From contig WJMF01000020.1 of assembly GCA_014728085.1 (NCBI GenBank), forward strand, positions 74,608 to 138,607: a DNA stretch of 64,000 bases, read 5' to 3'. This document shows, in pieces, positions 8,663-30,783 of the stretch (position 1 is the first letter of the stretch; each line of letters opens with the position of its first letter). The notes beneath the pieces were generated by a model. It was given only the letters and a program-made list of their open reading frames with translations. It did not search any database and was not told the origin of the DNA. A program made the position numbers and the translations under genes. This DNA comes from Candidatus Zhuqueibacterota bacterium (GTDB taxonomy: Bacteria; Zhuqueibacterota; Zhuqueibacteria; Residuimicrobiales; Oceaniaggregativiventaceae).

Positions 8663-9892
8663 TTATTCATGCCGAAGCGCGGCGATGGGATCAAGACGAG
8701 CGGCCTTGCTGGCGGGATAGACGCCAAAAAGAATCCCGACAAAAGAACAAAAAATCAGGGCGCCAAAAACCACAAATACCGGCACGGCAGCAGGCACGGG
8801 CGAAACCATGTCGACAAATTTTGCCAATGCCAGCCCAAGCACGATACCTATAACGCCTCCGACTTCACACAGCACGATCGCTTCCACCAAAAATTGCCAC
8901 AGAATGTTGCGTTTCTTTGCCCCGATAGATTTTCGGATACCGATTTCACGTGTTCTCTCGGTAACGGACACCAACAGAATATTCATAATACCGACGCCGG
9001 CGACCAGCAGTGAAATAGATGCTATCGCTATACTCACAATACGGGCAATCCTGGTTAAATTATTGAAAAAATCCACCATGGTGTCATTGGAAAAAATTTC
9101 AAAATCATTCTCTTCACCCGGCGGCACCTTGCGCACCGCACGCATGACGCCAATGGTCTGTTCCATGGTCGCATTGAACAATTCCGCGCTTTTTGCCTGT
9201 ACCGTGATATTTAAAGAGCGCTCCTTACCAAAGATATCGATAAACGGACCAATCGGAACCACCACATAATTGTCCCTGCTGTTGCCAAAAGCGCTGCCTC
9301 TCTCGGCAAAGACACCGATGACCTGAAAACGAACACCGCGTATCTTGATCTCTTTTCCTGGCGGAGATTGAAAGGGAAACAGCCTTTCCGCCACCTCCCT
9401 GCCGATAACGGCAACAGAGCGGTTAAAGTTCAGGTCCTGGGGCACCAAAAATCGGCCCTCTGCCATTGTAAACCCATTATTCTCCAAAAACTCGGGCGTT
9501 CCCCCGCAAATCGACACGCTTGGCAACGTTTTGCGATCCTCGAATCGAATCTCCTCTCCTCCGGAACGCCAATATTCAGCCCCGATGGCACGGGCAAGAT
9601 GAACGCGTTCCTTGAGCGCAAGATAATGGTCAAGAGTGATGTCTTTGCGGTTTCGGTATTTACGCCGCTCGTCACCGCCGGCATTGATCGCCGGGTATTT
9701 TTGCACCTGGAACGTATTGGCCCCCAATCCGCTTACCTGTTCATGAAAGCTGTTTTGCAATCCCTGAACCAGGGAATACATGGCGATGATGGTCATTACA
9801 CCAATGATGATGCCGAGCAGGGTCAATGCCGAGCGCATTTTGTTCGTCCGGATGGCGGTCAGGGCAATATTAAAACTTTCTCCGACTTGCAT
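8663..9892 (-). CDS. ABC transporter permease, MacB/FtsX family
   Basis: N-terminal TM helix, large periplasmic domain and three C-terminal TM helices (FtsX). Paralogue of the next gene. Confidence 0.85.
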   Translation of the reverse strand: MQVGESFNIALTAIRTNKMRSALTLLGIIIGVMTIIAMYSLVQGLQNSFHEQVSGLGANTFQVQKYPAINAGGDERRKYRNRKDITLDHYLALKERVHLARAIGAEYWRSGGEEIRFEDRKTLPSVSICGGTPEFLENNGFTMAEGRFLVPQDLNFNRSVAVIGREVAERLFPFQSPPGKEIKIRGVRFQVIGVFAERGSAFGNSRDNYVVVPIGPFIDIFGKERSLNITVQAKSAELFNATMEQTIGVMRAVRKVPPGEENDFEIFSNDTMVDFFNNLTRIARIVSIAIASISLLVAGVGIMNILLVSVTERTREIGIRKSIGAKKRNILWQFLVEAIVLCEVGGVIGIVLGLALAKFVDMVSPVPAAVPVFVVFGALIFCSFVGILFGVYPASKAARLDPIAALRHE

Positions 9893-9921
9893 GCTAGCCT
9901 CACAGGAAATAAAATAAAGTT

Positions 9922-11154
9922 TTATTCATAACGCAATGCTTCAATGGGATTGAGTTTGGCCGCCTTGCTCGCCGGGTAGATACCGAAAAAGATACCGATG
10001 ACGGTGGTAAAAGCCAATCCCAGGAATACAACCCATGGCGTGATTACAGCGGGAATAGGTGAAACAGAAGCGACGAGTTTTGCCAGTCCAACAGCACATA
10101 AAATACCGATAAACACACCGATGGCGCAAATCATAATGGATTCTATGAGAAACTGTACCATGATATCAAATCGCTTGGCGCCGATCGCTTTGCGAATCCC
10201 GATCTCGCGCGTTCTTTCGGTGACGGACACCAATAGAATATTCATAATACCGATACCACCCACCAGGAGCGAAATCGATCCGACTCCAATGGCAACAGCC
10301 CACAGAACACCGGTCAGGTCATTATAGGTGTCCATTAGCATACTTTGTTTGTTAATGGCGAAATTGTTTTCATCACCCCCGCTTAATCCGCGTATCCTCC
10401 GCATAACGCCGGCAAGCTCGATTTCCGCATCTTCGACCAGGTCCGGTGATTTTACCTTTACTTCCATTTGTACCGAGCGGTAACGCGTTCCAAAAATCGA
10501 GGCAAAAGTGTTGATCGGGATAAACACCCAGGTATCAAAATTATTGTTGAAAAATGAACCTTTTTTTTCCCGCACACCGATAACGCGCATTTTTCGGCCT
10601 TCGATCGAAACGCGTTTGCCGATAGGATCGGTATTGGGAAATAATTTTTGAGCCACTTCCCAGCCGAGAACGCATACCGAGCGACGATGATCAACATCCG
10701 TGGACGTAAAAAAACGGCCGTATTCAGGATAGGCATTTGAGGTGATCAAATAATCCTCTGTGGTGCCGACGACAATTGAACCTTCGAGCTTGCGTTCGCG
10801 ATATTGTATGTTACGTCGCGTATAGAGAGCCGGTGCCACAGCTTCCGCCAGGCGGGAAAGCTCTTTAACGCGTTCAGCTTCATGGATTTTGATGTTGGGC
10901 CGGTTACGATAGGCAAAATAAGTATCCCTGTCCATAAACCAGGAATATTTATCAATATAAAGCGTATCAGAACCGAGTGCGCTGATTTCCTCGGTAAAGG
11001 CTTTGTTCAGGCCCTGTACCAGTGCAACAATCGTAATAACGGTCATTACACCGATGACAATTCCCAAAGTGGTTAATATGGATCTCATTTTATAGGCACG
11101 CAAGGCCGTCAGCGCGATTTTCAGGCCTTCTCCTATATAAATTAAAATTCTCAT
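9922..11154 (-). CDS. ABC transporter permease, MacB/FtsX family (second copy)
   Basis: Same architecture as 8663..9892 and clear paralogy (IGIRKAIGAKR / IGIRKSIGAKK). Confidence 0.85.
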   Translation of the reverse strand: MRILIYIGEGLKIALTALRAYKMRSILTTLGIVIGVMTVITIVALVQGLNKAFTEEISALGSDTLYIDKYSWFMDRDTYFAYRNRPNIKIHEAERVKELSRLAEAVAPALYTRRNIQYRERKLEGSIVVGTTEDYLITSNAYPEYGRFFTSTDVDHRRSVCVLGWEVAQKLFPNTDPIGKRVSIEGRKMRVIGVREKKGSFFNNNFDTWVFIPINTFASIFGTRYRSVQMEVKVKSPDLVEDAEIELAGVMRRIRGLSGGDENNFAINKQSMLMDTYNDLTGVLWAVAIGVGSISLLVGGIGIMNILLVSVTERTREIGIRKAIGAKRFDIMVQFLIESIMICAIGVFIGILCAVGLAKLVASVSPIPAVITPWVVFLGLAFTTVIGIFFGIYPASKAAKLNPIEALRYE

Positions 11155-11171
11155 AAGACAGAAATCCTGTA

Positions 11172-11864
11172 TTAAAGTGCCAATTCACTCTTTGCTTCAT
11201 CCCGCTCAACATAACCATCGCGTAAGCGGATGATGCGGTCTGAATGTTCAGCAATATATTCTTCATGAGTCACCAGAATAATGGTATTGCCGGCATCGTG
11301 CAGCTCTTCGAACACTTCCATAATTTCATCGCCCGTCTTGCTGTCGAGATTACCTGTGGGCTCATCGGCCAGTATAATGGAGGGATTGTTAACAAGAGCG
11401 CGGGCGATAGCAACCCGTTGACGCTGTCCGCCGGATAACTCGTTGGGTTTGTGGTGCATTCTATCTGTGAGCCCGACGCGATCCAGCGCATTCTCCGCCT
11501 GCTGGCGTCGTTTAGAAGAAGGCGTTCCGTTGTATATCAAAGGTAATTCCACATTGTGAAGGGCATTTGCCCGGGGTAACAAATTAAAGGTCTGGAAAAC
11601 AAAACCAATCTCGCGATTCCGGATTTCTGCGAGTTGATCGTCATCCATATCACTGACATCGACATCATTGAGGAGGTAGGTACCACTGGACGCTGTATCC
11701 AGACAACCGATTATATTCATCAAGGTAGACTTGCCCGAACCCGACGGACCCATGATGGCCACATACTCGTTTTGCCCGATATTGAGATCGACGTCCCGAA
11801 GGGCATTTACCGAAATGCTACCGATCTCGTAAACTTTATTGATATCCTTTAGTTGAATCATCAT
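11172..11864 (-). CDS. ABC transporter ATP-binding protein (MacB/LolD type)
   Basis: Walker [13 protein letters not shown] signature [15 protein letters not shown], and Walker [12 protein letters not shown]. Confidence 0.9.
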
Positions 11865-11879
11865 ATAACTCGTCCTCTC

Positions 11880-13118
11880 TTAATCCAATTCGTCTTTCCG
11901 ATAGCCGATATCTTTGTTAACTTTTACCTCACTACCGTCTTTCAGCAACCGCGATAAGGCTTTATAGCTTCCGGAAACAACCATTTCATCTTCCTGCAAG
12001 CCGGAGACAATCTCAATGTTGGTGTCATCGCTGATACCGGTTTTGACCGGCCTGACATTGGCGATGCCCTCCTCCACCACAAAGACGACTTCAGTTTTTT
12101 CTTCCTTTTTTTCCTCCTCTTCGCCCTCTGAATCGGATTCTTTCTCTTCGGAAGAGCGTTTCGCAGAAACGTCGGCGCTGTCTTTTTTTACCTCCCGAAC
12201 CGTAACGCACTGAATCGGAACATATAGAATATCATGATGTGTTTCGGTCATGATATCAACCGTTGCGGACATGCCCGGCCTTAATTGTTCCACCGGCGAA
12301 GTGACGGCTACCTTGACTTCAAAATTTGTAACCTGTTCCTGTGTGCCCAGCCCCCGCGTTGTCGCCATATGAGCGATTTCGGATACCCGGCCGTTGAAAA
12401 ATGTGTCGGGGATGGCATCTACCTCGATATTGCACTTATCATCGATTTTAACATAGACAACATCATTTTCATCAATCTCGGCCAAAACCTCCATGCGATT
12501 TAAATCGGCAACGTTGAGAATCGGATCGGATTGGAACTGGGAGCCGACCGCGATCTCTCCCTCTTCTTTATAAACTTTAACCACCGTTCCATAGATAGGC
12601 GAAATCAGCCTGGTTTTTCGAAGATCGTCCATTGCCTGTTTCAGATAGGCTTCTGCCTGTTTAACCTGGCTCTCCGCAGACATGAGCTGAGCTTCTGCAG
12701 CATCCAGATCGGCCTGAGAGGTGAGGTCCTTCTTATACAGATCATTAATTCTTGAAAAATCAGCACGCGCTTTTTTAAGGGCAGCGAGAGCCGATAATTT
12801 CGACGACTCTGCCTGCTCAACGGCGGCCTCGTATCGCTGACGATCAAGCTCGACCAAAAGCTTCCCCTTGTTAACCGTTTCACCCTCTTCAACATGTATG
12901 CTCGTAATCTCCGCGGATATACGGGCGGAAATATCAACCTCCATCTCCGGCTGAACCTGACCCGAGCCGGATATCGTTCTTGTAATATCACCGCGCTTTA
13001 CCTCCACGGCAGAGATTTCAAGACCACCCGTTGACTGCTTGCGCAGATTAATAAAAATCATTACGGCAACGACGACAACCAGGATAATTGCAAGAATGAC
13101 TTTTTTCTGTTTCGACAT
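11880..13118 (-). CDS. HlyD/MacA-family periplasmic adaptor (membrane fusion protein)
   Basis: N-terminal TM helix, a long coiled-coil segment (AAVEQAESSKLSALAALKKARADFSRINDLYKKDL...) and barrel domains. Confidence 0.85.
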   Translation of the reverse strand: MSKQKKVILAIILVVVVAVMIFINLRKQSTGGLEISAVEVKRGDITRTISGSGQVQPEMEVDISARISAEITSIHVEEGETVNKGKLLVELDRQRYEAAVEQAESSKLSALAALKKARADFSRINDLYKKDLTSQADLDAAEAQLMSAESQVKQAEAYLKQAMDDLRKTRLISPIYGTVVKVYKEEGEIAVGSQFQSDPILNVADLNRMEVLAEIDENDVVYVKIDDKCNIEVDAIPDTFFNGRVSEIAHMATTRGLGTQEQVTNFEVKVAVTSPVEQLRPGMSATVDIMTETHHDILYVPIQCVTVREVKKDSADVSAKRSSEEKESDSEGEEEEKKEEKTEVVFVVEEGIANVRPVKTGISDDTNIEIVSGLQEDEMVVSGSYKALSRLLKDGSEVKVNKDIGYRKDELD

Positions 13119-13258
13119 TATTCAGCCTCATTTTTTAATACGTGTCTGTGTACCTGAACCACCGGCGAACGCAGCTGCAACAGGCCGGCACTTGCCGATT
13201 TTATACCTGCCGCTAAAGCGAAAATTTATACAATTTTTACTGCCGGTAAAACTCGTGT

Positions 13259-14668
13259 TTAATTTTCCTCCATACCCATAGCGGTTTCAAGTTCCGCTCT
13301 GGCAATCTTGGCCTCGTATTCTGCGCGAACATAGGCGCTTTGTGCCGATACCAGTTCAACTTGCGCCTGGGTCACTTCAAGCTCCGTTCCGGAACCCACC
13401 CGGCGCCGTTCTTGCTGCAAGCGCAAATTCTCACTCGCCGCTTCAATGTTTTCTTTGTTGATCTGCAAAAAATCGCGATAAGCTTCTAAATTTAAAAAGT
13501 ACTGCTTGACATCAACGGTCAACAGGCGTTTGGCCTCACGCAGGTTCTCCATAGCCATATCGTAATTAATTCTGGCTTTTTGAATAGCGGCCTTGTCGGC
13601 AAACCCCTTAAAAATATTAAGGTCGAGTTGAACACCGATGGTTGCGGTAAAATCTTCATTCAGATCGGTGCTAAAAACCCGCTCATATTGATCGTTATTG
13701 CGGCTGTAGGATATACTGCCGCCGATTGTGGGCATGTAACGCGCCTTTGCTGAAGCGAGATTATAGTAGTAACGTTTAACATCCATTTCCAGAGCTTTGA
13801 TGTTCTGATTTTCATCGATGGCGATTTCAAGAGCTTGGTCAAACGTGTACTCGGGAAAAATCGTCTCCGTTTCATCTTCCACAACCTCGACAGGCGTGCT
13901 CGGATCTATACCCAGGGCGCTGTTTAAATTGGCCCGGGCAATCTGGACCAAATTCTGTTGAGTAATATAATCCCGTTTATTGTTTCCCAGATTTACTCGT
14001 GCCTGATAGACCTCTGCCTGCGATGCCAGCCCGATATCCAGTCGCGTTTTGGCCTCTTCCACCTGCTCCTCGGCATAGTCAACCGCTTGTTTATAGACCT
14101 GTACCAATTTTATGGTTCTTAAAAGGTCATAATAGGATTTTTTTACATTCAGGATCACAGCAAGTCGGGTGTCCTGATAACTGTATTCGGAGGATGCTTC
14201 AATGGCTTTGGCGCCGCGAATGTTGTTGCTGCTGCGTCCAAAATCCCAGATATTTTGCGACAGCGATATTCGCGCACCATAGGAATTCCGTTCCGTGCGA
14301 TCCTGGGTGATGACCTGCTGTTCATAGATGACGTTTCCGGTTTCCGGATCCACCCCCCGGGGAACATCGGTCTTCATCCTTCTGGCACCCTGTATGTACT
14401 TTCCGGAGCTAATGCTGGAATTTATACGGGGTAAAACCGAAGACCAGGCAGAAGTAACATCCGCCCCGGCAAATTCGACACGACGCCCTGCATTGCGCAG
14501 AGTGGAGTTGTTTTCCAGTGCAATCTTGATACAATCCGGCAAATTGAGCGGCCTTTCATTCTGAGAATAAATTTCTTCCTCCTGAGAATAAACAGCGCCG
14601 CCCCATACCAGAATCGCTATGAAAATAATAATATAGTTTTTCAGCATACGCCAAACTCCCACAATCAA
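13259..14668 (-). CDS. TolC-family outer-membrane efflux protein
   Basis: Signal peptide and two repeated helical/beta halves typical of outer-membrane factors. It is first in the operon. Confidence 0.8.
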   Translation of the reverse strand: MIVGVWRMLKNYIIIFIAILVWGGAVYSQEEEIYSQNERPLNLPDCIKIALENNSTLRNAGRRVEFAGADVTSAWSSVLPRINSSISSGKYIQGARRMKTDVPRGVDPETGNVIYEQQVITQDRTERNSYGARISLSQNIWDFGRSSNNIRGAKAIEASSEYSYQDTRLAVILNVKKSYYDLLRTIKLVQVYKQAVDYAEEQVEEAKTRLDIGLASQAEVYQARVNLGNNKRDYITQQNLVQIARANLNSALGIDPSTPVEVVEDETETIFPEYTFDQALEIAIDENQNIKALEMDVKRYYYNLASAKARYMPTIGGSISYSRNNDQYERVFSTDLNEDFTATIGVQLDLNIFKGFADKAAIQKARINYDMAMENLREAKRLLTVDVKQYFLNLEAYRDFLQINKENIEAASENLRLQQERRRVGSGTELEVTQAQVELVSAQSAYVRAEYEAKIARAELETAMGMEEN

Positions 14669-14695
14669 ATTAATAGAATATTCAGATTATCGTCA

Positions 14696-15406
14696 CTAGG
14701 CTCCAACCAAACTTCCGATCGAAATGGAAACAACATAATACAGCACATACACCCCGATTACCCAGGGAACAACTTTTTTGACCTCGCGATTGCTCATGAT
14801 CGCAATTCCAATACAAAGCACCGCGATTCCCCAGATATTAAAAACTTCTACCTTGGATAAAAATTTGTATAAAAAACTCTCCGAAGATTGTAAAAACATC
14901 GCCACGCTAAAATGCACATCTATACTTTCTTTGGATAAAATAACAGGTACCTTGATATAGCCCCCCAGTAAATCAATAAAGGATTTATAAACGACCACCC
15001 CCAAAAGTTGTGAGTATTTGGCTTGTCCGCCGAGAATGATATTGGAAACAAACAACCATATACCTGCCAAAACAAAAAAAGCAACAAATGATCCGATCAG
15101 GGCCATCGGGTACATGAGAATTTTGCCAATGCCGAGATTTTTTTCAGCAATCTCTTCAGCCTGATCTTCCGCCATGCCCCTTTCCATCAGAGCTTCGACC
15201 GTTTTTTCCTTTTGAACATCCATGACCACAGGTTTGATCAGATGGGTCATTCCCACAGCCAGCACAGCATAAATGATCGCCGGAATCAGCCAGGCGGGTT
15301 TCACTTTTACAGCTTTGAAGGTTGCGCCAGGGGCGATGAAAACGTTAATGATGCGGGAAAAAAGTCCCATGCCCTGTTGTTGTTCAATAACTTGATTTTC
15401 TTCCAT
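14696..15406 (-). CDS. Yip1-family membrane protein
   Basis: Five TM helices, a glycine-rich N-terminus and Yip1/DUF1282-like topology. Confidence 0.55.
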   Translation of the reverse strand: MEENQVIEQQQGMGLFSRIINVFIAPGATFKAVKVKPAWLIPAIIYAVLAVGMTHLIKPVVMDVQKEKTVEALMERGMAEDQAEEIAEKNLGIGKILMYPMALIGSFVAFFVLAGIWLFVSNIILGGQAKYSQLLGVVVYKSFIDLLGGYIKVPVILSKESIDVHFSVAMFLQSSESFLYKFLSKVEVFNIWGIAVLCIGIAIMSNREVKKVVPWVIGVYVLYYVVSISIGSLVGA

Positions 15407-15504
15407 GATCCTACCCTCCAGTATCCTTTAAGTTACAATACCAGTTTAAAAGACGTAAAGCAGTTGAAAAAGTTTCAGGTTATATTGGATTATTCGGGAA
15501 AAGC

Positions 15505-16914
15505 TCAGATCAAATCTTTCTCAAGCTCAAGCAGATAGTCGAGAGCGGCATCGTGCTCGTTTGGAATATCCCCGTCTAGAATAGCTTCTTCGATCGCTTT
15601 CTTTAATTTCCCCACCAGCGGACCGGGTTGAAGATTACAAACCTTCATGATCTCGTCCCCCCGAACCGGAGATTGAAACTGGGCCAGACGATCTTTTTCT
15701 TTCACCTCCCGAATACGGTCCACCAGCTTGTCGAAATTGGAAAGGTGTCTGGCCACCCGCTTTGGATTGGCTGACGTGATATCAGCCCGACACAATGTTA
15801 TCAAATCATCGAGTTCGTCACCCGCCTGAACGATCAACCGGCGAATGGCAGAATCCGTTACCCCGTTTTCGGCAAGATGAATCGGGCGTAAATGCAATTT
15901 AATCAGTTTTTGCGCATAGTTTATCAGGTCATTGGAAACTTTAAGCCGTTTTCCGACGGGGACGATCAACCGGCTGCCCAATTCATCGTGTCCGTGAAAG
16001 GTCCAACCGGTTTCCGGTTTGAATTCCTTGGTCATCGGCTTGGCCAGATCATGAAAAAGAGCGGCAAAGCGAAGCCCGGTTTTTTCAGAAAGGGTCGCCA
16101 GGTTGTCGAGAACCTTGAGGGTGTGAAGAAAAACATCCTTGTGCTGATGCCTGCCCACCCGGTCAACGCCTTTTAATTGTTCGATTTCGGGGAGTATGGT
16201 CGAAAGGACGCTGGTTTCATCCATGAGCAAAAATCCCCGGGAAGGCTTTTCCGCAGCTAAAATTTTTAAGAGCTCATCCGTGATTCTCTCCTGGGAAATG
16301 ATTTCCAGGCGTTGCCGCTCCCGCCGTATAGCTGCCAGAGTCTTGGGTGCAATATCAAACTTCAGCTGAGTGGCAAAGCGAATGGCGCGGAGAATGCGCA
16401 AGGGGTCATCATAAAACGTTTTTACCGGCTCAAGAGGTGTTTCGATTCGTTTTTGCCGCAGAGCAGCGACGCCCTTGTACGGATCGATCAAATCACCAAA
16501 ACGAGCGCCGTTCAAAGCAATAGCCATGGCGTTTATGGTAAAATCCCTTCTCGCCAGATCGGTTAACAGATCTGCCTGTTCTACCACCGGCTTGCGGCTA
16601 TCCTGATGATAACTTTCCTTGCGGGCGGTTACAAATTCCAACGTCCGGTCTTCAAACGGGATCATCGCCGTACCAAAGCGTTTATATACAGTAACTCTTT
16701 TTAGATCGAAATGCCTGGCCAACGCTTCAGCCAGGAGAATACTATCGCCCTCAACGACAAAGTCTATATCGGTAACAGAACGGTCTAAAAAGAGATCCCT
16801 GACATACCCACCGACGACGTAGACATGAATACCTATTTGATCAGCAATGGTGCTGATCTCATGAAAAACGGGTTGCGCTTCAATGTGATCTGAAATTTGA
16901 TCAAGTGTAGTCAT
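15505..16914 (-). CDS. cca: CCA tRNA nucleotidyltransferase with HD domain
   Basis: Pol-beta-type motif GGYVRDLFLDRSVTDIDFVVEG, an RxxR head domain, and a C-terminal HD segment (FHDLAKP...HGHDELG). Confidence 0.85.
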   Translation of the reverse strand: MTTLDQISDHIEAQPVFHEISTIADQIGIHVYVVGGYVRDLFLDRSVTDIDFVVEGDSILLAEALARHFDLKRVTVYKRFGTAMIPFEDRTLEFVTARKESYHQDSRKPVVEQADLLTDLARRDFTINAMAIALNGARFGDLIDPYKGVAALRQKRIETPLEPVKTFYDDPLRILRAIRFATQLKFDIAPKTLAAIRRERQRLEIISQERITDELLKILAAEKPSRGFLLMDETSVLSTILPEIEQLKGVDRVGRHQHKDVFLHTLKVLDNLATLSEKTGLRFAALFHDLAKPMTKEFKPETGWTFHGHDELGSRLIVPVGKRLKVSNDLINYAQKLIKLHLRPIHLAENGVTDSAIRRLIVQAGDELDDLITLCRADITSANPKRVARHLSNFDKLVDRIREVKEKDRLAQFQSPVRGDEIMKVCNLQPGPLVGKLKKAIEEAILDGDIPNEHDAALDYLLELEKDLI

Positions 16915-17399
16915 TCTCTTCTGATATTTCGCTTTTTCACACCAACATCCTCCTGCAGGTTGCTCCTAAAGCTCGCACATGACGTTTTCTTCAAACGCTA
17001 AACAGCCCTGAACAATATGCGATGTTCTATCGCATCCGGAAATGGTTCACTCGAAGGAATATTAATTATTTGATTGGTTTTTGTCTTGTTTTTTTTAAAA
17101 AAAATAGTCATTATAATACTAAATAGACTTGTAAAGGGGGCTTGCTACTATTCAATATAGAATTCTGGGCCAGAAAAACAATCTTTTTCATTTTTGAAAT
17201 CTATTGTCTCATGAATGTACAAATGTTTCAGTAAAACACGACCATTTTTTATACCGTTTTCAAGACGTCAACATATCCTTGTCGTTGTTTCAAAAACTCA
17301 TGTTTACAATTGCAGAAAAAATCGATAGTTGCATCCCGGACGTTTACCGCTGGATCTGTGAGCGGATTTTTTTAATCCGGGATCAAACGCTGAATTAAA

Positions 17400-17415
17400 T
17401 GGCACTGTATTTGCG
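17400..17415 (+). promoter_or_regulatory. Sigma-54 (-24/-12) promoter candidate: TGGCAC-N5-TTGCG
   Basis: tggcactgtatttgcg has the correct GG-N10-GC spacing. It lies 68 nt upstream of the ATG of the large secreted protein. Confidence 0.5.
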
Positions 17416-17482
17416 TTGCACTAGCCAGTATGCCATATCGGCATCACGAGGCCGAATTTTGGTGAATCAACTGGAGGAAAAG

Positions 17483-20400
17483 ATGAAACCGAATTTCTAT
17501 CTATGTATATTGTTACTGTTGATCGGGTTTACCGCCCCGCTGCTGGCTCAGGAAGGTACCATTATCGACAGAACCACGGCAGACCCGGAAAAAAGCGGCT
17601 ATGCCCGTTGGATAAAACTGACCTTTCAAACCACACCGGGCGGCACCAACAATCTCAACGACAATTTTAACGGTGTCAAGTTTATGATCGACCTGAATCT
17701 CGACCGGGACGATAACGCGACAACACACACCCCCGGTGAGGTTTATGCCATTCGTGGCGATTCGATCAAGACGCACTTTAACAACTCTGGTGGTCAATTT
17801 GATCAGTATTTGTATTTACCCATCAGAGGGAATCACGATACCAACATTCGGCCACGCGTAAAACTGGAAACCACAGGTTCACTCAGAATCGGCGCTTTTC
17901 AGCTAACCATCCAAAACGATACCGGATATGAAACCTGCCGCGACGGCATCAAACCGAACCTGAGAATGGCGATTTATTATGATGACGGCAGTGGTTCATC
18001 CGGTCCCGAACCGCAAAGCCCGGGCAATACCACCGCTTTTGACGGTTATATCGACCGCATCGATATTATCTGGAGTGAACCCATGGATACAACCAATAAA
18101 GCGGTTAGCGGCGACATTTTTAATGGACTTGGCGATACAATTCTGCGAACGCAAACGACAGGTGGGTGGTACGATGACGAAAACCCCCTGACCTATGACT
18201 ATCAGAGATTTACATTTTACGTTATTTCGAGCACACCCAATACCGGTGTCTCCATCACCCTCACCTATCAGCCCCCCGTCAGCAGCCTGGACAAATTCAA
18301 AGCCAAGTTTCCTTATGATGGTGTCAATCGCTATGAAGCTGAAAGCCATTCCGTCACGGTTCAGGACAAGGCGGGGCCGGCAATTATCAGCGCAAAGACC
18401 GTCAGAGCACATGGTAAAAGACGTCAGCCTCTGGCCGACGCACTTACCAGCAAACGCGTACTGGTCACCTTTAGCGAAAAGGTCAATCGCGCCAATTTAC
18501 TCCTCGATGATCTGACCTTTACCGTTACCATCATGGGTACGCAGCAGGATATTTATGCCGTGCGCTTTCCCACCAGCGGATATAGTAAAACCTTTGAAAT
18601 TGAGCTGGATGATCCCTATTCAACCGAAAACGATACCGGCAGTATTCGTTATAGCGGCAGCTCCCTGGTTTCGGATATCAATGGCAATCTTAATGGCATT
18701 TCTACAGCCAACGAGCCACCCACGCGACCCGCTGCGGGCTATGGACGCCTGATATACATTTGGGATGGAATCCTGCCCAACATTATCCGCGTCCGTACCC
18801 GAGATGTTGCTTTGCCGGGCGAGCTGATCAACGGCGGCGCAAACGGATGGGGGGTGCTCGATTATGTCGATATTATTTTTGATCACACCATGGACACAGG
18901 GCAGCTCAGCACGAGCGGCTTTACTGTCGAAGGAGAAGGCATACAGGGCATCGCCGGGGTTGGAACCTGGTTTAACAGCACCACTTTTCGCATCCCCATA
19001 GCGGCAAGCAACCCCAAAATGCCCAATACCGGCGTATTGCCACAGGTAAAATATGAAAACCCGGAAGCGCCGAACGGCATGAGAGATAACACAAATTACG
19101 GCTATACCGAAGATGTTTTCTACAGCGATACGATGTTGTCGAACAGCAATTACCGCATCGTGGAAATCATCGATAACGCCGGTCCGGCCATATGGCGAGC
19201 GACCACCGCGAGTAAAAACAGCATTCGCATCACCTTTAGCGAAAAAATCAAAACCAATTTTCCCTCGAGCTCCAATTGGCCGACAAATCCCGCACATGCC
19301 TATACTTCACCAAAAAAATTCATCTGGTATGTAGACAATGTTGCCTCCGAGGATACAGGAACCGAAATTTTCTTTACCGGCATTCAGCCGAACTATCAAA
19401 ACAAAATTGTTTATCTGCACCAGACCGGAACGACCTGGACAAAATACGATAGCGGTGGAATCAATTTCACCGGCCAGGGTGTTGTAAGAGATATTGCCAA
19501 CAACGGCAACGATCAGTATGATAATGATACCAGTCTGAGCTCAAAAACAATTCTGGGATCGGATGTCAAGGTATACAGAGATACGATTGCACCAAATCTT
19601 GTTGCCGTTCAAACTGTAGATACCGATTTGAACGGAAAAATTGACGGCTATCGATTTGTTTTTGACGACACCTCTGCCGTTTACCCCAAAACCTCTTTTA
19701 ATACTGAAAACTGGTCGGTTATATCCTATTATACGCTGGAAACCAAAACCTTGCTTGGATTGGATGAAAGCGGCTATACCGTCGTCGGTTCTGATACCCT
19801 CTCGGTCTTGTTGCGTTTCGAAGAAACCCCGAATGACACGTTGAAAAAGAGAGCTTATCTCGGTGACACCGGCGATGTTCCCGATATCATTGTTGCGACC
19901 GGCCAGGGCCTTTCAGACTGGGCCGGCAATGTTATGGATCCATTGCCCATCGGTATAACCAAAGAACAGGACAAATCCGGTCCTGCCATCTGCAGCGCCA
20001 AAACCATCAGTCTCCAGGACGTCGATGTCTTTGTTAGTGAAGATCTTAAAGACAGCACCGTTTCCCGGGAGGATTTTCTGCTCAATATGGTGGTTCAAAC
20101 CCCGATTACAAGCACGTTGCCCATCATAACCGCCACAGAACAGACACCCGAAATGCACAGCAATCCGGAGGAGATCAAACATGGCCGCGTCACGCTTACA
20201 GTACCCCTGGTAAGTGCATGGCAGCCGGATTATGAAGGCTTTGTGGCATTTTCCTATCCGGGCGCGGTCTATGATCACGTCAGCAATGGTCCCGGTGTCG
20301 ATCCCATGATGGACAATCCAAATACACAGCTGGACACTATTAAGGTCGACGACAATGCCGCCAGTCAGTTCGATATTCATGTGAAAATACCCGGCAATCC

Positions 20401-21994
20401 GGTTAGCGGTGCCCCCTTTCAGGTAGAAGTGATTGCCCTTGATAGTGATGGAGAGATAGACCGAAATTTTCCCTATGAAATCTTTTTCTCCAGCAACCTT
20501 CCGACAAATGATATCTCCATGCCATACGGCCCCCATGCATTGGAGGAAGGCGTGGGGCTGTTCACGGTTACAAGTTGGGTGGAAACCAACAATCTCGTCT
20601 TTATGGTTTCCGTGAATAATGATAACTATTCAGGATATCACAGCCAATCCGCGCCAATCACCATAGAAGCCCCGGTAATTGATGCGCCGGACACACTGAT
20701 CGTTGAGGACTATCCCAATGACCAGGGAAGCCATGTCATTTTAAAATTCGATTATTCCGACAACCATCCGGGTATCGGCGAAAACAATTTGATCAGCTAT
20801 TATCAGATTTACCGCGAAGTCAATCACCAGGTTTTCCATTGGTACACACAACCCGCTATCGACACGACAGGAAGCTATGCTGATTCAATGATTATCGTGC
20901 TCAATACAGTTGATAACGAAGAATCCAACTTTTGGGTACGTGCCGTCCACGACCGCAATCGAAGCCTCGCCAAACGATTTGTTTCTCAGACAGACGATCA
21001 GGACGGCTATCTTGTTGCCGAAAGCATAGATCCGATGATGCTTTACAGCGAAGGAAAAATCAGCGAAGAGTACGGCGCCTATATGAAAACCCTGAACGCC
21101 GGACAATATTTATCCGCAACGGTTATGTCTCATGGCCGGGCCGTCGATAACATACAACCCAAAATGCCTGAAAATCTATTGGCCGCCAAGGAAGGCGTCG
21201 CGGTTAAATTGATGTGGAATAAAGTCCGTTTGGGTGTCAACAACACACCCGAAGGAAAACTTTACTATGAAATCTATGCCCACAATCAAAACGCTTACTT
21301 TAATCCGGATGAAGATGGTGAGCTGCTGGCAACCATCGAAGATACGTCGTTTACCATTCCGGACAATCGTTTGCGACGGTTTTATTGCATACGCGCATTT
21401 GACGGAGACAACAGGTCCGCTGTCTCAAATCGGGTCGGGAAATATGGATTCACGATGAATAAAAACAAAAACAGTTCATTCAACTATCTCTCTTTTCCGC
21501 TGGAGACCTGGGATATAACGGATGCAAAGAGCGTATCGCAAATGATTGAAAACCTGCAAGTCCTCTACAAACTAAACCCGGTGACCAACAGCTTTTCGAC
21601 CTATTATATCCCACAGATAGAGTATGGAACCAACTTTGCCCTTGAAACCGGGGCGCCGCTGCTGGTAAACAACGATAAAACCATTGCCGATACCTGGTTT
21701 TATACCGGTAAAATACCAGCGGTTGGATCGGTTAAATTCACTCTGAACAAGGGTGAAAAATCCATCTTTAATGAAATCATCGTCCCACTGGACAAATTTG
21801 ATATTACCAATGCCGATCAATTGGCCAATAATATCGGCGGCATTGAGATTGTTTACAAGCTCGATCCGGAAACCAATGCCTTCAGTAAATTCTGGATCCC
21901 GGACATCGGCTATGGCGAAAATTTTGCAATCATGCCCGGTGAACCGGTACTTATCAACATTAATCAAAATGCCCCGGACATGTGGCCTAACTAG
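17483..21994 (+). CDS. Very large secreted protein (about 1504 aa) with a signal peptide, repeated Ig-like/beta-sandwich-type segments and a tandemly duplicated C-terminal roughly 55-aa module
   Basis: GGAGGAAAAG ribosome-binding site then ATG at 17483. Signal peptide MKPNFYLCILLLLIGFTAPLLAQ. No enzymatic motif was recognised. Internal repeat YKLNPVTNSFSTYYIPQIEYGTNFALETGAPLLVNND / YKLDPETNAFSKFWIPDIGYGENFAIMPGEPVLININ. Confidence 0.7.
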   Translation: MKPNFYLCILLLLIGFTAPLLAQEGTIIDRTTADPEKSGYARWIKLTFQTTPGGTNNLNDNFNGVKFMIDLNLDRDDNATTHTPGEVYAIRGDSIKTHFNNSGGQFDQYLYLPIRGNHDTNIRPRVKLETTGSLRIGAFQLTIQNDTGYETCRDGIKPNLRMAIYYDDGSGSSGPEPQSPGNTTAFDGYIDRIDIIWSEPMDTTNKAVSGDIFNGLGDTILRTQTTGGWYDDENPLTYDYQRFTFYVISSTPNTGVSITLTYQPPVSSLDKFKAKFPYDGVNRYEAESHSVTVQDKAGPAIISAKTVRAHGKRRQPLADALTSKRVLVTFSEKVNRANLLLDDLTFTVTIMGTQQDIYAVRFPTSGYSKTFEIELDDPYSTENDTGSIRYSGSSLVSDINGNLNGISTANEPPTRPAAGYGRLIYIWDGILPNIIRVRTRDVALPGELINGGANGWGVLDYVDIIFDHTMDTGQLSTSGFTVEGEGIQGIAGVGTWFNSTTFRIPIAASNPKMPNTGVLPQVKYENPEAPNGMRDNTNYGYTEDVFYSDTMLSNSNYRIVEIIDNAGPAIWRATTASKNSIRITFSEKIKTNFPSSSNWPTNPAHAYTSPKKFIWYVDNVASEDTGTEIFFTGIQPNYQNKIVYLHQTGTTWTKYDSGGINFTGQGVVRDIANNGNDQYDNDTSLSSKTILGSDVKVYRDTIAPNLVAVQTVDTDLNGKIDGYRFVFDDTSAVYPKTSFNTENWSVISYYTLETKTLLGLDESGYTVVGSDTLSVLLRFEETPNDTLKKRAYLGDTGDVPDIIVATGQGLSDWAGNVMDPLPIGITKEQDKSGPAICSAKTISLQDVDVFVSEDLKDSTVSREDFLLNMVVQTPITSTLPIITATEQTPEMHSNPEEIKHGRVTLTVPLVSAWQPDYEGFVAFSYPGAVYDHVSNGPGVDPMMDNPNTQLDTIKVDDNAASQFDIHVKIPGNPVSGAPFQVEVIALDSDGEIDRNFPYEIFFSSNLPTNDISMPYGPHALEEGVGLFTVTSWVETNNLVFMVSVNNDNYSGYHSQSAPITIEAPVIDAPDTLIVEDYPNDQGSHVILKFDYSDNHPGIGENNLISYYQIYREVNHQVFHWYTQPAIDTTGSYADSMIIVLNTVDNEESNFWVRAVHDRNRSLAKRFVSQTDDQDGYLVAESIDPMMLYSEGKISEEYGAYMKTLNAGQYLSATVMSHGRAVDNIQPKMPENLLAAKEGVAVKLMWNKVRLGVNNTPEGKLYYEIYAHNQNAYFNPDEDGELLATIEDTSFTIPDNRLRRFYCIRAFDGDNRSAVSNRVGKYGFTMNKNKNSSFNYLSFPLETWDITDAKSVSQMIENLQVLYKLNPVTNSFSTYYIPQIEYGTNFALETGAPLLVNNDKTIADTWFYTGKIPAVGSVKFTLNKGEKSIFNEIIVPLDKFDITNADQLANNIGGIEIVYKLDPETNAFSKFWIPDIGYGENFAIMPGEPVLININQNAPDMWPN

Positions 21995-22024
21995 TAGATA
22001 CGTAAATCGTTTTTGAGGTGAAAA

Positions 22025-22987
22025 ATGTTAAATAAAAAATTATTGATCAGCCTGTTTCTAGTCGTCAGCGCGACGCTTGTTTTGGCACAACCGCAAATGT
22101 CCAAACTGGTATGGGGAACGGTAAAAAATCCGGACGGAAGCACGCCGGGCATAAAAGAAGTAAAATATACCAGTTACCTGTCCAGTGAAATCACGGATTC
22201 AACCGATGTCGATAGCACAACCAATAATGGAGGCTGGGCAATCGATTTAAATGATTTTAATAACACGGGAAGTGAATGGGGAGAAGGCGATACCCTGTTT
22301 GTTCTCTTTGAGAATATTGCTTCCGGCGGTGAATTCAACGGCGTCACGTCAGTGCTTAAACATATTGCAGGCTCGGAATCAGATTATCCGCAGCAAATTA
22401 GCGTCTATACCCTTCCGGTTGAATTGGTGACCTTTGCATCACAGGTTGAAAAGGGATTACTGCATGACAGGGTGATATTGTCGTGGAAAACCCTCGGCGA
22501 GTCCAATAATTTTGGCTTTGCCATCGAGCGAAGTTTTGATGGCACAAGGTTTGAAGAAATTGGCTTTATCGCCGGTGCCGGATCAACCAATACAGCACGG
22601 CATTATGAATACAAGGATGGCCAAATCACTCAACCCGGGATCTACAGCTATCGCCTGAAACAAATCGATAACGACGGCACCTTTACCTATTCCAGGGTGG
22701 AGGAAATCACTCTGAATACACCGGAACACTATGAATTGCTGCAAAATTATCCAAATCCGTTCAATCCGGAAACCACGATAGCGTTCAAACTGAAAGAGGA
22801 TACCCGGGTGAATGTCACCATTTTTAATGTCCTCGGCAGGGAAGTAGAGACTCTGGTTGATAAAAAGATGAAAGCCGGTACCCATCAAATTGTTTTTAAT
22901 GCCGGTACACTGCCAAGCGGAATGTATTTTTATCATATGAAAACAAGCGATTTTAATCATGTACGCAAAATGGTCCTGATCAAATAA
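22025..22987 (+). CDS. Secreted protein with a type IX secretion (Por) C-terminal sorting domain
   Basis: C-terminus ELLQNYPNPFNPETTIAFKLKEDTRVNVTIFNVLGREVETLVDKKMKAGTHQIVFNAGTLPSGMYFYHMKTSDFNHVRKMVLIK matches the T9SS C-terminal domain. N-terminal signal peptide present. Confidence 0.8.
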   Translation: MLNKKLLISLFLVVSATLVLAQPQMSKLVWGTVKNPDGSTPGIKEVKYTSYLSSEITDSTDVDSTTNNGGWAIDLNDFNNTGSEWGEGDTLFVLFENIASGGEFNGVTSVLKHIAGSESDYPQQISVYTLPVELVTFASQVEKGLLHDRVILSWKTLGESNNFGFAIERSFDGTRFEEIGFIAGAGSTNTARHYEYKDGQITQPGIYSYRLKQIDNDGTFTYSRVEEITLNTPEHYELLQNYPNPFNPETTIAFKLKEDTRVNVTIFNVLGREVETLVDKKMKAGTHQIVFNAGTLPSGMYFYHMKTSDFNHVRKMVLIK

Positions 22988-23674
22988 GGAGCCATTGCAG
23001 CTTTTGCATAAAAAAGGGGCTGTATTAAACGCTTTGAATATAGCCCCTGCAAATTTATATTTTATCATTTTTTGCCATAATTCTGCGGAGCGAGTTCCTT
23101 CCGCCCCTCCTCGCCGTGGATTTCAAGGCCCTCTTCTGACTTGCGAATAAGCAAAAAAAAATAAACAGAAAGCGGAAGAGCTCGCGGAGCCCGCGGAGGA
23201 TCACCCTCACACAATCTCCTGCCATAATTTGGCCATTAGTACTCATCGTTCTGTTCTACGTGATTTCGTTCTGATAACCCTTGCGGTTGAGATTGTGGGG
23301 GGGAGCCGGAGCGGCCCCGAAATATCTGGTATATGCATTATGGCATTCAAGATGCATATTTTTATCTATATAATGTGCTTTTACATACCCTGGTTGCGTT
23401 TCAACCAGAGTAGCGTCCGGACGGCAAATCCTGCAAGATCAAAAAAAAGCGGTAAAGTCACCAGGCTGCAGGGACTTTTGATACAACTCCTTTTTTGATA
23501 AATTGTTTTGAAATCCCCCTTTCCGTTTTTAGCCTGTTTGCGAAGACAATCTTCCGGGCTTTTCCAGGCTGTGCTCTTTTTCGTTCGCATTTTTATCATT
23601 TTTTTGCTAATTTGAATGATTATATAATCCTGAGCAATAAGATGAGAAAAGCGGTAAATAAAGAGGATGTGGCT

Positions 23675-30656: not shown

Positions 30657-30685
30657 GTAAACACTAAACATTTCAATAATAACCG

Positions 30686-30761: not shown

Positions 30762-30783
30762 CGAAATCGTTAACCCCTCGATT

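What the first reader, a model, noticed from the sequence alone, without database searches (positions are those of the whole stretch)
17400..22987. Sigma-54 promoter driving a 1500-aa secreted protein followed by a T9SS-sorted protein
A near-consensus TGGCAC-N5-TTGCG element lies 68 nt upstream of a 4.5-kb gene. That gene encodes a signal-peptide protein with no recognisable catalytic motif and many Thr/Asn/Asp-rich beta-type segments. A 320-aa protein with a bona fide T9SS C-terminal sorting domain lies immediately downstream. A giant adhesin- or S-layer-like surface protein under enhancer-dependent sigma-54 control is unusual and suggests conditional surface remodelling. Neither of the two activators in the window is adjacent, so the cognate activator is unknown.
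Basis: partly seen in the sequence, partly recalled or inferred. Interest (0 to 1): 0.5.

Follow-up and report, generated by a model that had tools for sequence, protein, structure and literature searches.

The report
Sigma-54 operon for giant surface protein
A two-gene operon found across the uncultured bacterial phylum KSB1 encodes a 164-kDa chain of antibody-like domains and a small secreted partner protein, and it is switched on through a conserved sigma-54 promoter and an upstream enhancer-like site; the regulation follows known precedents, but the way the two proteins seem to pair up may be new.

Summary
TGGCACTGTATTTGC (17400-17414) is the only exact TGGCAC-N5-TTGC in the window. TGGCAY-N5-TTGC lies upstream of the orthologous gene in 30 of 30 related loci with DNA there, while the flanks are unalignable. 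A second footprint, TGTYTCA-N11/12-TGTTTCA-N5-ACACG (window 17205-17241), lies 154-216 nt upstream. It was found nowhere else, so it is a candidate dedicated enhancer. The 1503-aa gene (17483-21994) is intact in about 26 candidate-division KSB1 species. It has a signal peptide and no Pfam hit, and AlphaFold models it as a chain of Ig/FN3-like domains. Its best solved-structure match is the S-layer protein SbsC. It has no T9SS sorting domain. It ends in two ~85-aa repeats that also close secreted proteases in other lineages, always beside a small surface-anchored protein. The 320-aa T9SS protein (22025-22987) follows it in every locus. Best reading: an activator-gated sigma-54 operon for a surface protein that docks on a T9SS-anchored partner. 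The docking step is inferred. The activator is unknown. Sigma-54 control of a giant adhesin operon already has a precedent in Flavobacterium psychrophilum.

The parts
17205..17241 (+). Enhancer-like element (candidate binding site for the activator). Sequence: TGTCTCA-N12-TGTTTCA-N5-ACACGA. It contains the dyad TGTTTCAGTAAAACA at 17224-17238.
   Evidence: TGTYTCA-N11/12-TGTTTCA occurs 19 times in 430 kb (both strands) of held DNA. All 19 lie 154-216 nt upstream of the -24 element of this gene, on the same strand, in 19 of 21 loci. A 23-letter version found 11 metagenome contigs. All of those with enough DNA carry the promoter (9) and the gene (8) downstream. The dyad is unique in the window, against 0.17 expected. 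Its function as an enhancer is inferred.
17333..17383 (+). Nested inverted repeats with a T7 run: ATCCCGGA...CCGCT-N9-AGCGG-TTTTTTT...TCCGGGAT. They lie between the enhancer-like element and the promoter.
   Evidence: Read directly. Seen only in the window and its close relatives L001 and L002; L005 and L014 have a T-run at the same place. Role unknown. It could be a DNA-bending region or an insulating terminator.
17400..17415 (+). Sigma-54 promoter TGGCACTGTATTTGCG. The -24 GG is at 17401-17402 and the -12 GC at 17413-17414. The predicted transcription start is near 17425.
   Evidence: It is conserved as TGGCAY-N5-TTGCS in 30 of 30 orthologous loci, at 50-206 nt from the predicted ATG in the 21 loci where this was measured, while the flanks are not conserved.
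17473..17477 (+). Ribosome-binding site GGAGG, 5 nt before the ATG.
   Evidence: GGAGG is also present in most orthologues.
17483..21994 (+). Large gene (called BIG in the full report): 1503 aa, mature form 164 kDa. Layout: signal peptide aa 1-23; conserved N-terminal beta domain; about six Big_5-like Ig domains marked by D-x-x-G/A-P-x-I and FSEx motifs; Ig/FN3-like domains; and a C-terminal tandem module.
   Evidence: 27 sequences, 53% mean column identity. Big_5 is hit in 14 of 27 members. AlphaFold mean pLDDT 86.3 and 81.6, all-beta; fold matches to tandem Ig chains, S-layer proteins SbsB/SbsC/EA1/Sap, and intimin/invasin.
21476..21991 (+). C-terminal tandem module of the large protein (aa ~1332-1503): two ~85-aa beta-alpha-beta4 repeats. 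Proposed to be a docking domain.
   Evidence: block-mean pLDDT 81-96 in this region; no Pfam family; 236 representative proteins at E<=1e-3, mostly with the module at the extreme C-terminus; the module sits on Peptidase_C1, S8, C25 and other secreted proteins; a small anchored partner gene is always adjacent.
22025..22987 (+). Partner gene (called T9SS320 in the full report): 320 aa. Layout: signal peptide aa 1-22; family-specific N-domain aa ~23-128; FN3-like domain aa ~129-235; T9SS type A C-terminal sorting domain aa 242-317.
   Evidence: it lies directly downstream of the large gene in every locus that has DNA there, even where the flanks differ; about 25 full-length orthologues, while more than 5,700 proteins share only the FN3-like domain plus sorting domain; the N-domain profile hits only genes next to module-bearing genes.
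23016..23047 (+). Possible operon terminator: GGGGCT-N20-AGCCCC followed by T-rich sequence.
   Evidence: Read directly. It is weak because the loop is long, and the scan did not list it.

Best explanation
This is a two-gene operon that is a core, single-copy feature of the uncultured candidate division KSB1, a phylum of the Fibrobacterota-Chlorobiota-Bacteroidota (FCB) superphylum.

Regulation. Transcription starts at a sigma-54 (-24/-12) promoter. Such promoters are silent unless an AAA+ enhancer-binding protein (EBP) remodels the closed complex. That protein most probably binds the conserved TGTYTCA-N11/12-TGTTTCA-N5-ACACG element about 155-215 nt upstream. Its gene is not adjacent and remains unidentified.

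Products. The first product is a Sec-exported, acidic, 164-kDa chain of about ten Ig/FN3-like beta-sandwich domains. It has no T9SS sorting domain of its own and ends in a tandem alpha/beta module. The second product is a small protein. Its only family-specific part is a ~100-aa N-terminal beta domain. This domain is fused to the generic T9SS sorting cassette (an FN3-like domain plus a type A C-terminal domain), which should export it and attach it to the outer surface.

Proposed mechanism. The partner acts as the surface anchor or carrier for the large protein, and the tandem module docks on the partner's N-domain. The large protein would then be displayed as a long surface fibril or S-layer-like coat when the activator's signal is present.

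Shown here: the promoter and its conservation; the enhancer-like footprint; the operon linkage; the domain architecture; the sorting domain on the partner and its absence on the large protein; and the recurrence of module-plus-anchored-partner gene pairs.

Inferred: activator dependence in vivo; that the upstream element is the enhancer; surface location of the large protein; and physical docking.
For: Promoter:
- It is an exact consensus match.
- It is present in 21 of 21 genome loci and 9 of 9 metagenome loci.
- It carries 1.70 bits per column against 0.17 and 0.33 bits in the flanks.
- The pattern occurs 23 times against 1.4 expected. The only two other copies lie next to the window's two EBP genes.
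- Both EBPs have Sigma54_activat, HTH_8 and intact GAFTGA.

Enhancer-like element:
- 19 of 19 local matches and 11 of 11 metagenome matches are tied to this promoter.
- It stays with the large gene whether the divergent neighbour is the CCA-adding enzyme or a UbiB-like kinase.

Operon:
- The two genes are 30 nt apart.
- They are linked in all loci, including the rearranged L013 and L018.
- The numbers of orthologues match, at about 26 and about 25.

Fold:

Docking idea:
- The module closes 236 representative proteins, including secreted C1, S8 and C25 peptidases.
- In all 7 independent contexts examined, a small secreted protein with a lineage-appropriate anchor is adjacent.
- In L026 two module proteins are followed by two homologues of the T9SS partner. 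One is full length, at 33% identity and E = 1e-55. An EBP gene and TGGCAAAGGAATTGCA lie just upstream.
- The partner's N-domain profile hits nothing except genes next to module genes.

Precedent: sigma-54 drives the SprB adhesin operon in F. psychrophilum (PMC9723704).
Against: - No rpoN gene was seen. The window does not contain one and the rest of the genome could not be searched.
- No activator gene lies within 6 kb in any KSB1 locus.
- The upstream element is mainly a direct repeat. The dyad is well kept only in some clades, so it could bind a different kind of regulator.
- There is no expression or localisation data.
- The large protein has no known signal for crossing the outer membrane, and co-export of a partner-bound protein by T9SS has no precedent known to me. 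It could therefore be periplasmic.
- The tandem module also occurs in Chloroflexi-labelled MAGs, where the neighbour is a CBM96-type protein. That protein shows no detectable homology to the partner's N-domain (hhalign E = 0.87). The pairing is therefore one of position and architecture, not of a single conserved interaction domain.
- The neighbourhood sample is small, at 7 contexts.
Confidence: 0.6

Rival explanations
1. The promoter and operon are real, but the two proteins work independently. The large protein is a periplasmic or outer-membrane-associated structural protein. The 320-aa protein is an ordinary small T9SS cargo that happens to be co-transcribed. No docking takes place.
For: The large protein has no T9SS sorting domain. 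Piggyback export through T9SS has no precedent known to me. The FN3-like domain plus sorting domain of the partner is a generic cassette shared by more than 5,700 proteins.
Against: The two genes are strictly linked one-to-one in every locus, including rearranged ones. The pairing of module cargo with a homologous T9SS partner recurs in an unrelated cassette, L026. An anchored small neighbour was found in 7 of 7 contexts. The partner's only specific part is a ~100-aa domain with no catalytic signature.
Confidence: 0.25
2. The large protein is the S-layer (or sheath) protein of KSB1 cells. It would be a constitutive, abundant lattice former. The sigma-54 promoter would then act as a strong, nearly always-on promoter and not as a conditional switch.
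For: It is a single-copy core gene in a housekeeping neighbourhood. It is acidic, has few Cys and is rich in T, N and D. It carries Big_5 (SbsA-type) Ig domains. SbsC, SbsB, EA1, Sap, the haloarchaeal S-layer protein and the Deinococcus HPI S-layer protein are among the best fold matches.
Against: The fold matches are generic tandem Ig chains with TM-scores of 0.1-0.2, and titin and DSCAM score equally well. No known S-layer anchoring domain is present. Lattice formation cannot be tested here. Sigma-54 promoters need an activator by their mechanism, so constitutive use would require a permanently active activator.
Confidence: 0.25
3. The conserved TGGCAY-N5-TTGC is not a sigma-54 promoter. It would be the operator of another DNA-binding protein or part of a conserved leader RNA, and the gene would be transcribed from a sigma-70-type promoter.
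For: There is no experimental transcription start and rpoN was not observed. Promoter consensus sequences in the FCB group are poorly known.
Against: The conserved positions are exactly the sigma-54 contact bases, with invariant spacing. No sigma-70-like site was found between 17200 and 17483 on the + strand. No Rfam family matches. The same motif lies beside both EBP genes of the window. The distance to the ATG varies from 50 to 206 nt, which does not fit a fixed leader structure.
Confidence: 0.05

Closest known systems
Sigma-54 promoter of the remFG-sprCDBF gliding-adhesin operon of Flavobacterium psychrophilum (Guerin et al. 2021, PMC9723704)
   Same: Both are in the FCB group. In both, a -24/-12 promoter drives an operon that encodes a giant beta-rich cell-surface protein together with a T9SS-related partner gene. 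Both fit the general link between sigma-54 and the cell exterior (PMC3162934).
   Different: SprB carries its own type B T9SS sorting domain, and its partner SprF is a PorP-like outer-membrane protein. Here the large protein has no sorting domain, and the partner is a soluble type A cargo. There is no sequence homology. The F. psychrophilum operon also has a second promoter (motif SM5), whereas none was seen here. Here the promoter and an enhancer-like site are conserved across the phylum.
Classical enhancer-dependent sigma-54 promoters (glnAp2/NtrC, nifH/NifA, pilA/PilR)
   Same: They share TGGCAC-N5-TTGC, a conserved upstream element 100-200 bp away, and EBPs with GAFTGA in the genome. pilA/PilR is also a case of a surface fibre under sigma-54 control.
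   Different: The activator is unidentified and not adjacent. The upstream element is a direct repeat plus a partial dyad, not the usual pair of dyads. The regulon appears to be this single operon.
Bacterial S-layer proteins built of Ig-like domains (SbsA/SbsC of Geobacillus, SbsB, EA1/Sap)
   Different: No SLH or other known anchoring domain is present. Similarity is at the level of domain fold only. Self-assembly is untested. The host is presumably diderm, with a T9SS.
Cohesin-dockerin display on anchored scaffoldins (cellulosome)
   Same: The logic is the same. Diverse secreted enzymes and structural proteins share a duplicated C-terminal module. A neighbouring small protein carries a cell-surface anchor.
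   Different: There is no homology to dockerin or cohesin. The module is two ~85-aa alpha/beta domains and not a 70-aa calcium-binding EF-hand pair. Binding is purely inferred.
T9SS type A cargo (Por_Secre_tail, TIGR04183)
   Same: The 320-aa partner meets the sorting-domain criteria and has a Sec signal peptide.
   Different: Its passenger is only a ~100-aa domain with no Pfam family. The large protein upstream lacks the sorting domain.

Membership tests
Sigma-54-dependent (-24/-12) promoter | GG and GC dinucleotides exactly 10 bp apart, within TGGCAC-N5-TTGC | tested here: met
   TGGCACTGTATTTGC at 17400-17414 with 0 mismatches.
Sigma-54-dependent (-24/-12) promoter | Intergenic position, correct orientation and conservation upstream of orthologues | tested here: met
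   Present in 30 of 30 loci. It carries 1.70 bits per column against 0.17 and 0.33 bits in the flanks.
Sigma-54-dependent (-24/-12) promoter | The genome encodes sigma-54 (rpoN) | tested here: inconclusive
Indirect support: two EBPs with Sigma54_activat and intact GAFTGA, each next to a -24/-12 match.
Sigma-54-dependent (-24/-12) promoter | A cognate EBP and its upstream activating sequence | tested here: inconclusive
   A conserved candidate element lies 154-216 nt upstream. No EBP gene lies within 6 kb in any KSB1 locus.
Sigma-54-dependent (-24/-12) promoter | Transcription start about 12 nt downstream of the GC, dependent on rpoN and the activator | not testable with these tools
   This needs 5'-end mapping or genetics.
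T9SS type A cargo (applied to the 320-aa protein) | C-terminal Por_Secre_tail / TIGR04183 domain above the curated cut-off | tested here: met
   PF18962 scores 47.4 bits (cut-off 27). TIGR04183 scores 43.5 bits (cut-off 23). Both cover aa 242-317.
T9SS type A cargo (applied to the 320-aa protein) | N-terminal Sec signal peptide | tested here: met
   MLNKKLLISLFLVVSATLVLA|Q, judged by inspection. No predictor tool was run.
T9SS type A cargo (applied to the 320-aa protein) | T9SS machinery genes in the same genome | not tested
   None was found among the window ORFs scanned. NCBI annotates T9SS type A sorting-domain proteins in KSB1 MAGs.
T9SS cargo (applied to the 1503-aa protein) | Type A or type B C-terminal sorting domain | tested here: not met
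   The window protein has no Por_Secre_tail, CHU_C or TIGR04131 hit, and none of the 27 family members hits the Pfam sorting-domain models. The C-terminus is instead a helix-containing tandem module.
S-layer protein | Known cell-wall or outer-membrane anchoring domain (such as SLH) and lattice self-assembly | tested here: not met
   No SLH or other anchoring family is hit. Self-assembly cannot be tested here. Only the domain folds resemble SbsC and SbsB.
SprB-type gliding adhesin system | Type B sorting domain on the adhesin and a PorP/SprF-family gene downstream | tested here: not met
   No CHU_C domain is present on the large protein. The downstream gene is a soluble type A cargo, not PorP/SprF.
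Cohesin-dockerin pair | Dockerin (PF00404) on the cargo and cohesin (PF00963) on the anchored partner | tested here: not met
   Neither the module nor the partner hits these families. The resemblance is one of logic only.

The most novel reading that the evidence does not exclude
The C-terminal tandem module is the cargo half of an undescribed two-partner surface-display system. Diverse secreted proteins carry it, including this 164-kDa Ig chain and C1, S8 and C25 peptidases. Each would be tethered to a dedicated small anchor protein encoded next door. The anchor uses whatever sorting signal its lineage offers. In KSB1 and relatives this is a T9SS type A sorting domain. In Chloroflexi-like contigs it is a CBM96-type domain followed by a transmembrane or 'YLPxV' tail. 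In the KSB1-type version, a protein without a sorting domain would reach or be held at the surface by a T9SS-exported partner, which may mean piggyback export. The whole unit is gated by a dedicated sigma-54 activator.
Probability: 0.3. Interest if true: 0.7.

Novelty: new variant of a known kind. Interest (0 to 1): 0.5.

Why it matters
KSB1 has no cultured member, so almost nothing is known about its cell surface or its gene regulation. This locus provides three things:
- A phylogenetically validated sigma-54 promoter together with a candidate enhancer. These can seed genome-wide models of the sigma-54 regulon for the phylum.
- A phylum-specific, probably abundant envelope protein that could serve as a marker or as a target for antibodies or FISH.
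- A concrete, testable hypothesis about how a protein without a T9SS sorting domain is displayed through a T9SS-sorted partner.

If the module-partner pairing is real, it would define a new docking system. The module is shared by proteases and structural proteins in several phyla, and the finding would bear on the open question of whether T9SS can handle protein complexes.

Tried and rejected
- PDB sequence-profile search with the whole family: nothing.
- Pfam and NCBIfam on the whole protein, its N-terminal domain, its C-terminal module and the partner's N-domain: no family.
- Rfam on the window and the intergenic region: only two tRNAs elsewhere and chance-level hits. A known leader RNA or small RNA is therefore rejected.
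- Small ORFs between 16915 and 17400: nothing conserved.
- The conserved upstream element read as a Bacteroidetes-type (-33/-7) promoter, an ECF-type promoter or the start of a minus-strand gene: rejected on reading the sequences. The required second boxes are absent, 'TCTCAT' opens no ORF, and the element stays with the large gene whichever gene is the divergent neighbour.
- Alpha-2-macroglobulin-like reading of the large protein: rejected. There is no helical thioester domain and the model is all-beta.
- Assigning one of the window's two EBPs as the activator by comparison with the EBP beside the L026 cassette: only the AAA+ core is similar, so no assignment was made.
- Homology between the partner's N-domain and the CBM96-type partners: none.
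- The search for homologous proteins with the same alignment: returned only one protein, so that search was wasted.
- afdb50 fold search: the library was not available.
- Fold searches could not isolate the tandem module, because hits from the FN3/Ig domains dominate.


Full report
**What is at the coordinates**

The + strand carries TGGCACTGTATTTGCG at 17400-17415. This is the only exact TGGCAC-N5-TTGC in the window. With one mismatch allowed the window has 7 matches against 4.5 expected, so relaxed matches mean nothing on their own. The exact match does matter, because about 0.1-0.25 are expected per window from base composition (scaled).

The ORF listing reports an ORF from an ATG at 17399, which overlaps the promoter. 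The real start is the ATG at 17483. It follows a GGAGG ribosome-binding site (17473-17477) and opens a typical signal peptide, MKPNFYLCILLLLIGFTAPLLA|QEG. The 28 codons upstream are not conserved in orthologues.

In this report I call the 1503-aa product 'BIG' and the 320-aa downstream protein 'T9SS320'. BIG is encoded at 17483-21994 and has no Pfam or NCBIfam hit. Thirty nucleotides later, behind its own GAGGTG site, a 320-aa ORF (22025-22987) carries a type A T9SS sorting domain. It scores 47.4 bits against PF18962 and 43.5 bits against TIGR04183, both above the curated cut-offs.

**Whose genome this is**

BIG has 28 homologues in the 5.8-billion-protein collection. Nearly all are full length (1459-1571 aa) and 41-93% identical. 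Those that carry a name are labelled candidate division KSB1, and one is labelled Calditrichaeota. A scan of one genome per species returned 23 loci. All are MAGs, and several are labelled KSB1. Some carry evidently loose labels such as 'uncultured Cytophagia' or 'Aminicenantes UBA2199'. The window therefore comes from a KSB1 bacterium, in the FCB superphylum. The gene is not decaying. The only split copy, in L018, contains an assembly gap.

**Is the promoter real?**

- TGGCA[CT]-N5-TTGC lies upstream of the BIG orthologue in 21 of 21 loci that have upstream DNA. It sits 50-206 nt before the predicted start codon.
- In the 365.7 kb of window plus loci, counting both strands, the pattern occurs 23 times against about 1.4 expected. 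Twenty-one of these are the BIG promoters.
- Anchored on the element, 19 non-redundant loci show 1.70 bits per column over the 15-nt element, against 0.17 and 0.33 bits in the 25-nt flanks. The flanks are unalignable between clades.
- Nine further metagenome loci also carry the element.
- The conserved bases are exactly those that sigma-54 contacts, and the spacing never varies.
- The two remaining matches in the window lie beside the window's two EBP genes. One is at 41680 (+), just after the PAS-AAA+-HTH_8 protein (40139-41545), and precedes small NifX-like and DUF5320-like ORFs; I named these two by eye, with no family search. The other is at 1819 (-), divergent from the GAF-AAA+-HTH_8 protein (2055-3602).
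- Both EBPs have intact GAFTGA loops.
- No sigma-70-like site lies on the + strand between 17200 and 17483, and no Rfam family matches.

I put the probability that this is a working sigma-54 promoter at about 0.9. The missing piece is rpoN itself. It is not among the window ORFs I scanned, and I could not search the rest of the genome.

**A second footprint: a candidate enhancer**

About 155-215 nt upstream of the -24 element lies TGTYTCA-N11/12-TGTTTCA-N5-ACACG. In the window this is 17205-17241, and it contains the dyad TGTTTCAGTAAAACA at 17224-17238.

- The double-heptamer pattern occurs 19 times in 430 kb (both strands) of held DNA. All 19 are at this position and on this strand, in 19 of 21 loci. 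The exceptions are L018, where an N-run interrupts it, and L019, where it has diverged.
- The dyad is unique in the window.
- A 23-letter version scanned against JGI metagenomes gave 11 contigs. Every one with enough DNA has the sigma-54 element 140-230 nt downstream (9 of 9), and 8 have a BIG orthologue.
- The element stays with BIG whether the divergent neighbour is the CCA-adding enzyme or a UbiB-like kinase.

Its position and exclusivity fit an upstream activating sequence for a dedicated EBP. Its mainly direct-repeat form is less typical, so I treat it as a candidate (about 0.5). No EBP gene lies within 6 kb of BIG in any KSB1 locus.

**The proteins**

AlphaFold models of aa 1-800 and aa 780-1503, built from 27-28-sequence alignments, are confident (mean pLDDT 86.3 and 81.6) and all-beta.

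Sequence motifs (D-x-x-G/A-P-x-I linkers and 'FSEx' strands), together with Big_5 hits in 14 of 27 members, indicate this layout:
- an N-terminal conserved beta domain;
- about six Big_5-like Ig domains;
- further Ig/FN3-like domains;
- two C-terminal ~85-aa beta-alpha-beta4 repeats, with block-mean pLDDT 81-96.

T9SS320 has about 25 full-length orthologues. More than 5,700 other proteins share only its C-terminal 60%, which is an FN3-like domain plus the sorting domain. That part is a generic sorting cassette found on all kinds of cargo in Ignavibacteria, Bacteroidota and other groups. Its only specific part is a ~100-aa N-terminal beta domain with no Pfam family.

**Linkage and the docking idea**

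BIG and T9SS320 are adjacent and co-oriented in every locus that has downstream DNA. This holds even where the flanking genes differ, as in L013 and L018.

The C-terminal tandem module of BIG is a mobile unit. A phmmer search against 1.84 billion representative proteins finds 236 proteins at E<=1e-3 (60 at <=1e-10). In most of them the module is at the extreme C-terminus. Ten of these proteins were scanned. They include papain-like (C1), subtilase (S8) and gingipain-like (C25, with propeptide) peptidases, DUF642/CARDB proteins, and ~220-aa proteins that consist of little else. The named examples come from Anaerolineae and Caldilineaceae MAGs.

I looked at the gene neighbourhoods of six such proteins.

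In L026/L027 the order is as follows:
- an EBP gene with GAFTGA;
- TGGCAAAGGAATTGCA;
- a 366-aa protein with FN3 plus module;
- a 793-aa protein with Peptidase_C1, FN3 and module;
- a 236-aa protein with the N-domain plus a T9SS sorting domain;
- a 330-aa full-length homologue of T9SS320 (33% identity, E = 1e-55).

The same cassette logic therefore recurs outside the BIG family, with two cargoes, two partners and an adjacent activator.

In the other five contexts (L024/25, L028, L029, L030 and the P0046 contig), the adjacent gene encodes a small secreted protein with a CBM96 (PF24517) domain. It lies directly downstream in four, and two such genes lie upstream in the fifth. For the four partners with DNA the scores are 58, 69.8, 29.9 and 41.5 bits. 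Each of these four has an anchor-like C-terminus. This is a transmembrane helix with a basic tail in L028 and L029, and an FN3-like domain or DUF11 repeats followed by a 'YLPxV...SP' tail in L024 and L030.

The CBM96-type partners and the T9SS320 N-domain show no detectable homology. A local profile of the N-domain hits only genes next to module genes.

Taken together, 7 of 7 contexts pair a module-bearing protein with a small, surface-anchored neighbour. I infer a cargo-anchor (dockerin/cohesin-like) relationship. No binding has been shown. For a diderm it is unclear how BIG would cross the outer membrane. I put this step at about 0.35-0.45.

**Comparison with what is known**

Sigma-54 is broadly linked to the cell exterior (Francke et al. 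2011, PMC3162934). In Flavobacterium psychrophilum, a sigma-54 promoter of the remFG-sprCDBF operon was validated by mutagenesis. That operon encodes the giant gliding adhesin SprB and its T9SS helper SprF (PMC9723704). The regulatory theme is therefore not unusual.

What differs here:
- The promoter and an enhancer-like site are conserved across the phylum.
- The regulon appears to be this single operon.
- The protein family is uncharacterised.
- The large protein lacks a sorting domain and is paired with a T9SS-sorted partner.

The locus fails the membership tests for SprB-type systems, for S-layer proteins with known anchors, and for cohesin-dockerin pairs. The resemblances are functional analogies.

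**Verdict**

The finding is real and well supported as a sigma-54, activator-dependent operon for a large envelope protein and its T9SS-sorted partner, conserved across KSB1. On the regulatory side it is a new variant of a known kind. The module-partner pairing is the part that could be new, and it needs the experiments listed under the next steps. Interest: 0.5.

Noticed in passing
window 41680-41694 (+) and 1805-1819 (-): These are the only two other TGGCAY-N5-TTGC matches in all the DNA held (window plus L001-L023). Each lies beside one of the window's two sigma-54 activator genes. One follows the PAS-EBP (40139-41545) and precedes small ORFs (41675-42357) that looked NifX-like and DUF5320-like to me by eye; no family search was run on them. 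The other is divergent from the GAF-EBP (2055-3602). Both are probably real sigma-54 promoters.
   Followed up: partly
window 21476-21991; proteins P0029-P0175: The C-terminal tandem module of the large protein matches no Pfam or NCBIfam model and is mobile. It is found in 236 representative proteins, mostly at the C-terminus of secreted C1, S8 and C25 peptidases and other proteins. Some are from Chloroflexi-labelled MAGs.
   Followed up: partly
L026 2002-9247 (also L027): A paralogous cassette from an unidentified organism. Its order is: sigma-54 activator, TGGCAAAGGAATTGCA (3718), two module-bearing proteins (one a papain-like protease), then two homologues of the T9SS partner. A second -24/-12-like site, TGGCACAATAGTGGC, lies at 1846-1860 (-), divergent from the activator gene.
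   Followed up: partly
L024 7726-8742; L028 8033-8758; L029 5862-6596; L030 4868-6304: In contigs that show no T9SS-type gene, module-bearing proteins are followed by small secreted proteins with a CBM96 (PF24517) domain. These end in a transmembrane helix with a basic tail, or in 'YLPIVFSSP' / 'YLPLVMRTSP'. This may be an unrecognised C-terminal sorting signal.
   Followed up: partly
window 22409-22987 (aa ~129-320 of the 320-aa protein): The FN3-like 'LPVEL..F.A....V.L.W.T..E.NN.GF' domain plus Por_Secre_tail forms a ~190-aa cassette. More than 5,700 otherwise unrelated proteins share it. The functional T9SS sorting unit in these lineages may therefore be larger than the ~75-aa sorting domain in Pfam.
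   Followed up: no
window 17333-17383: Nested inverted repeats with a T7 run lie between the enhancer-like element and the -24 box, in the window clade only. L005 and L014 have a T-run at the same place. This could be a bend or IHF-like region, or an insulating terminator.
   Followed up: no
L001, L002, L008, L010, L012, L014, L016, L021, L022: The record titles call these MAGs 'uncultured Cytophagia' or 'Candidatus Aminicenantes UBA2199'. Yet they carry the KSB1-specific operon, and all but the truncated L021 also share the KSB1 gene order upstream of it. The taxonomic labels look unreliable.
   Followed up: no
window 8663-16914 (-): The upstream neighbourhood is conserved across KSB1. It consists of a MacB-type ABC exporter (two FtsX permeases, an ATPase, a HlyD-type adaptor and a TolC-like OEP), a Yip1-domain protein and the CCA-adding enzyme. 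In some species a UbiB-like kinase gene is inserted between the CCA gene and the operon.
   Followed up: partly
window 30583-30762 (-): Two adjacent tRNA genes (Rfam RF00005, 73.9 and 73.5 bits).
   Followed up: no
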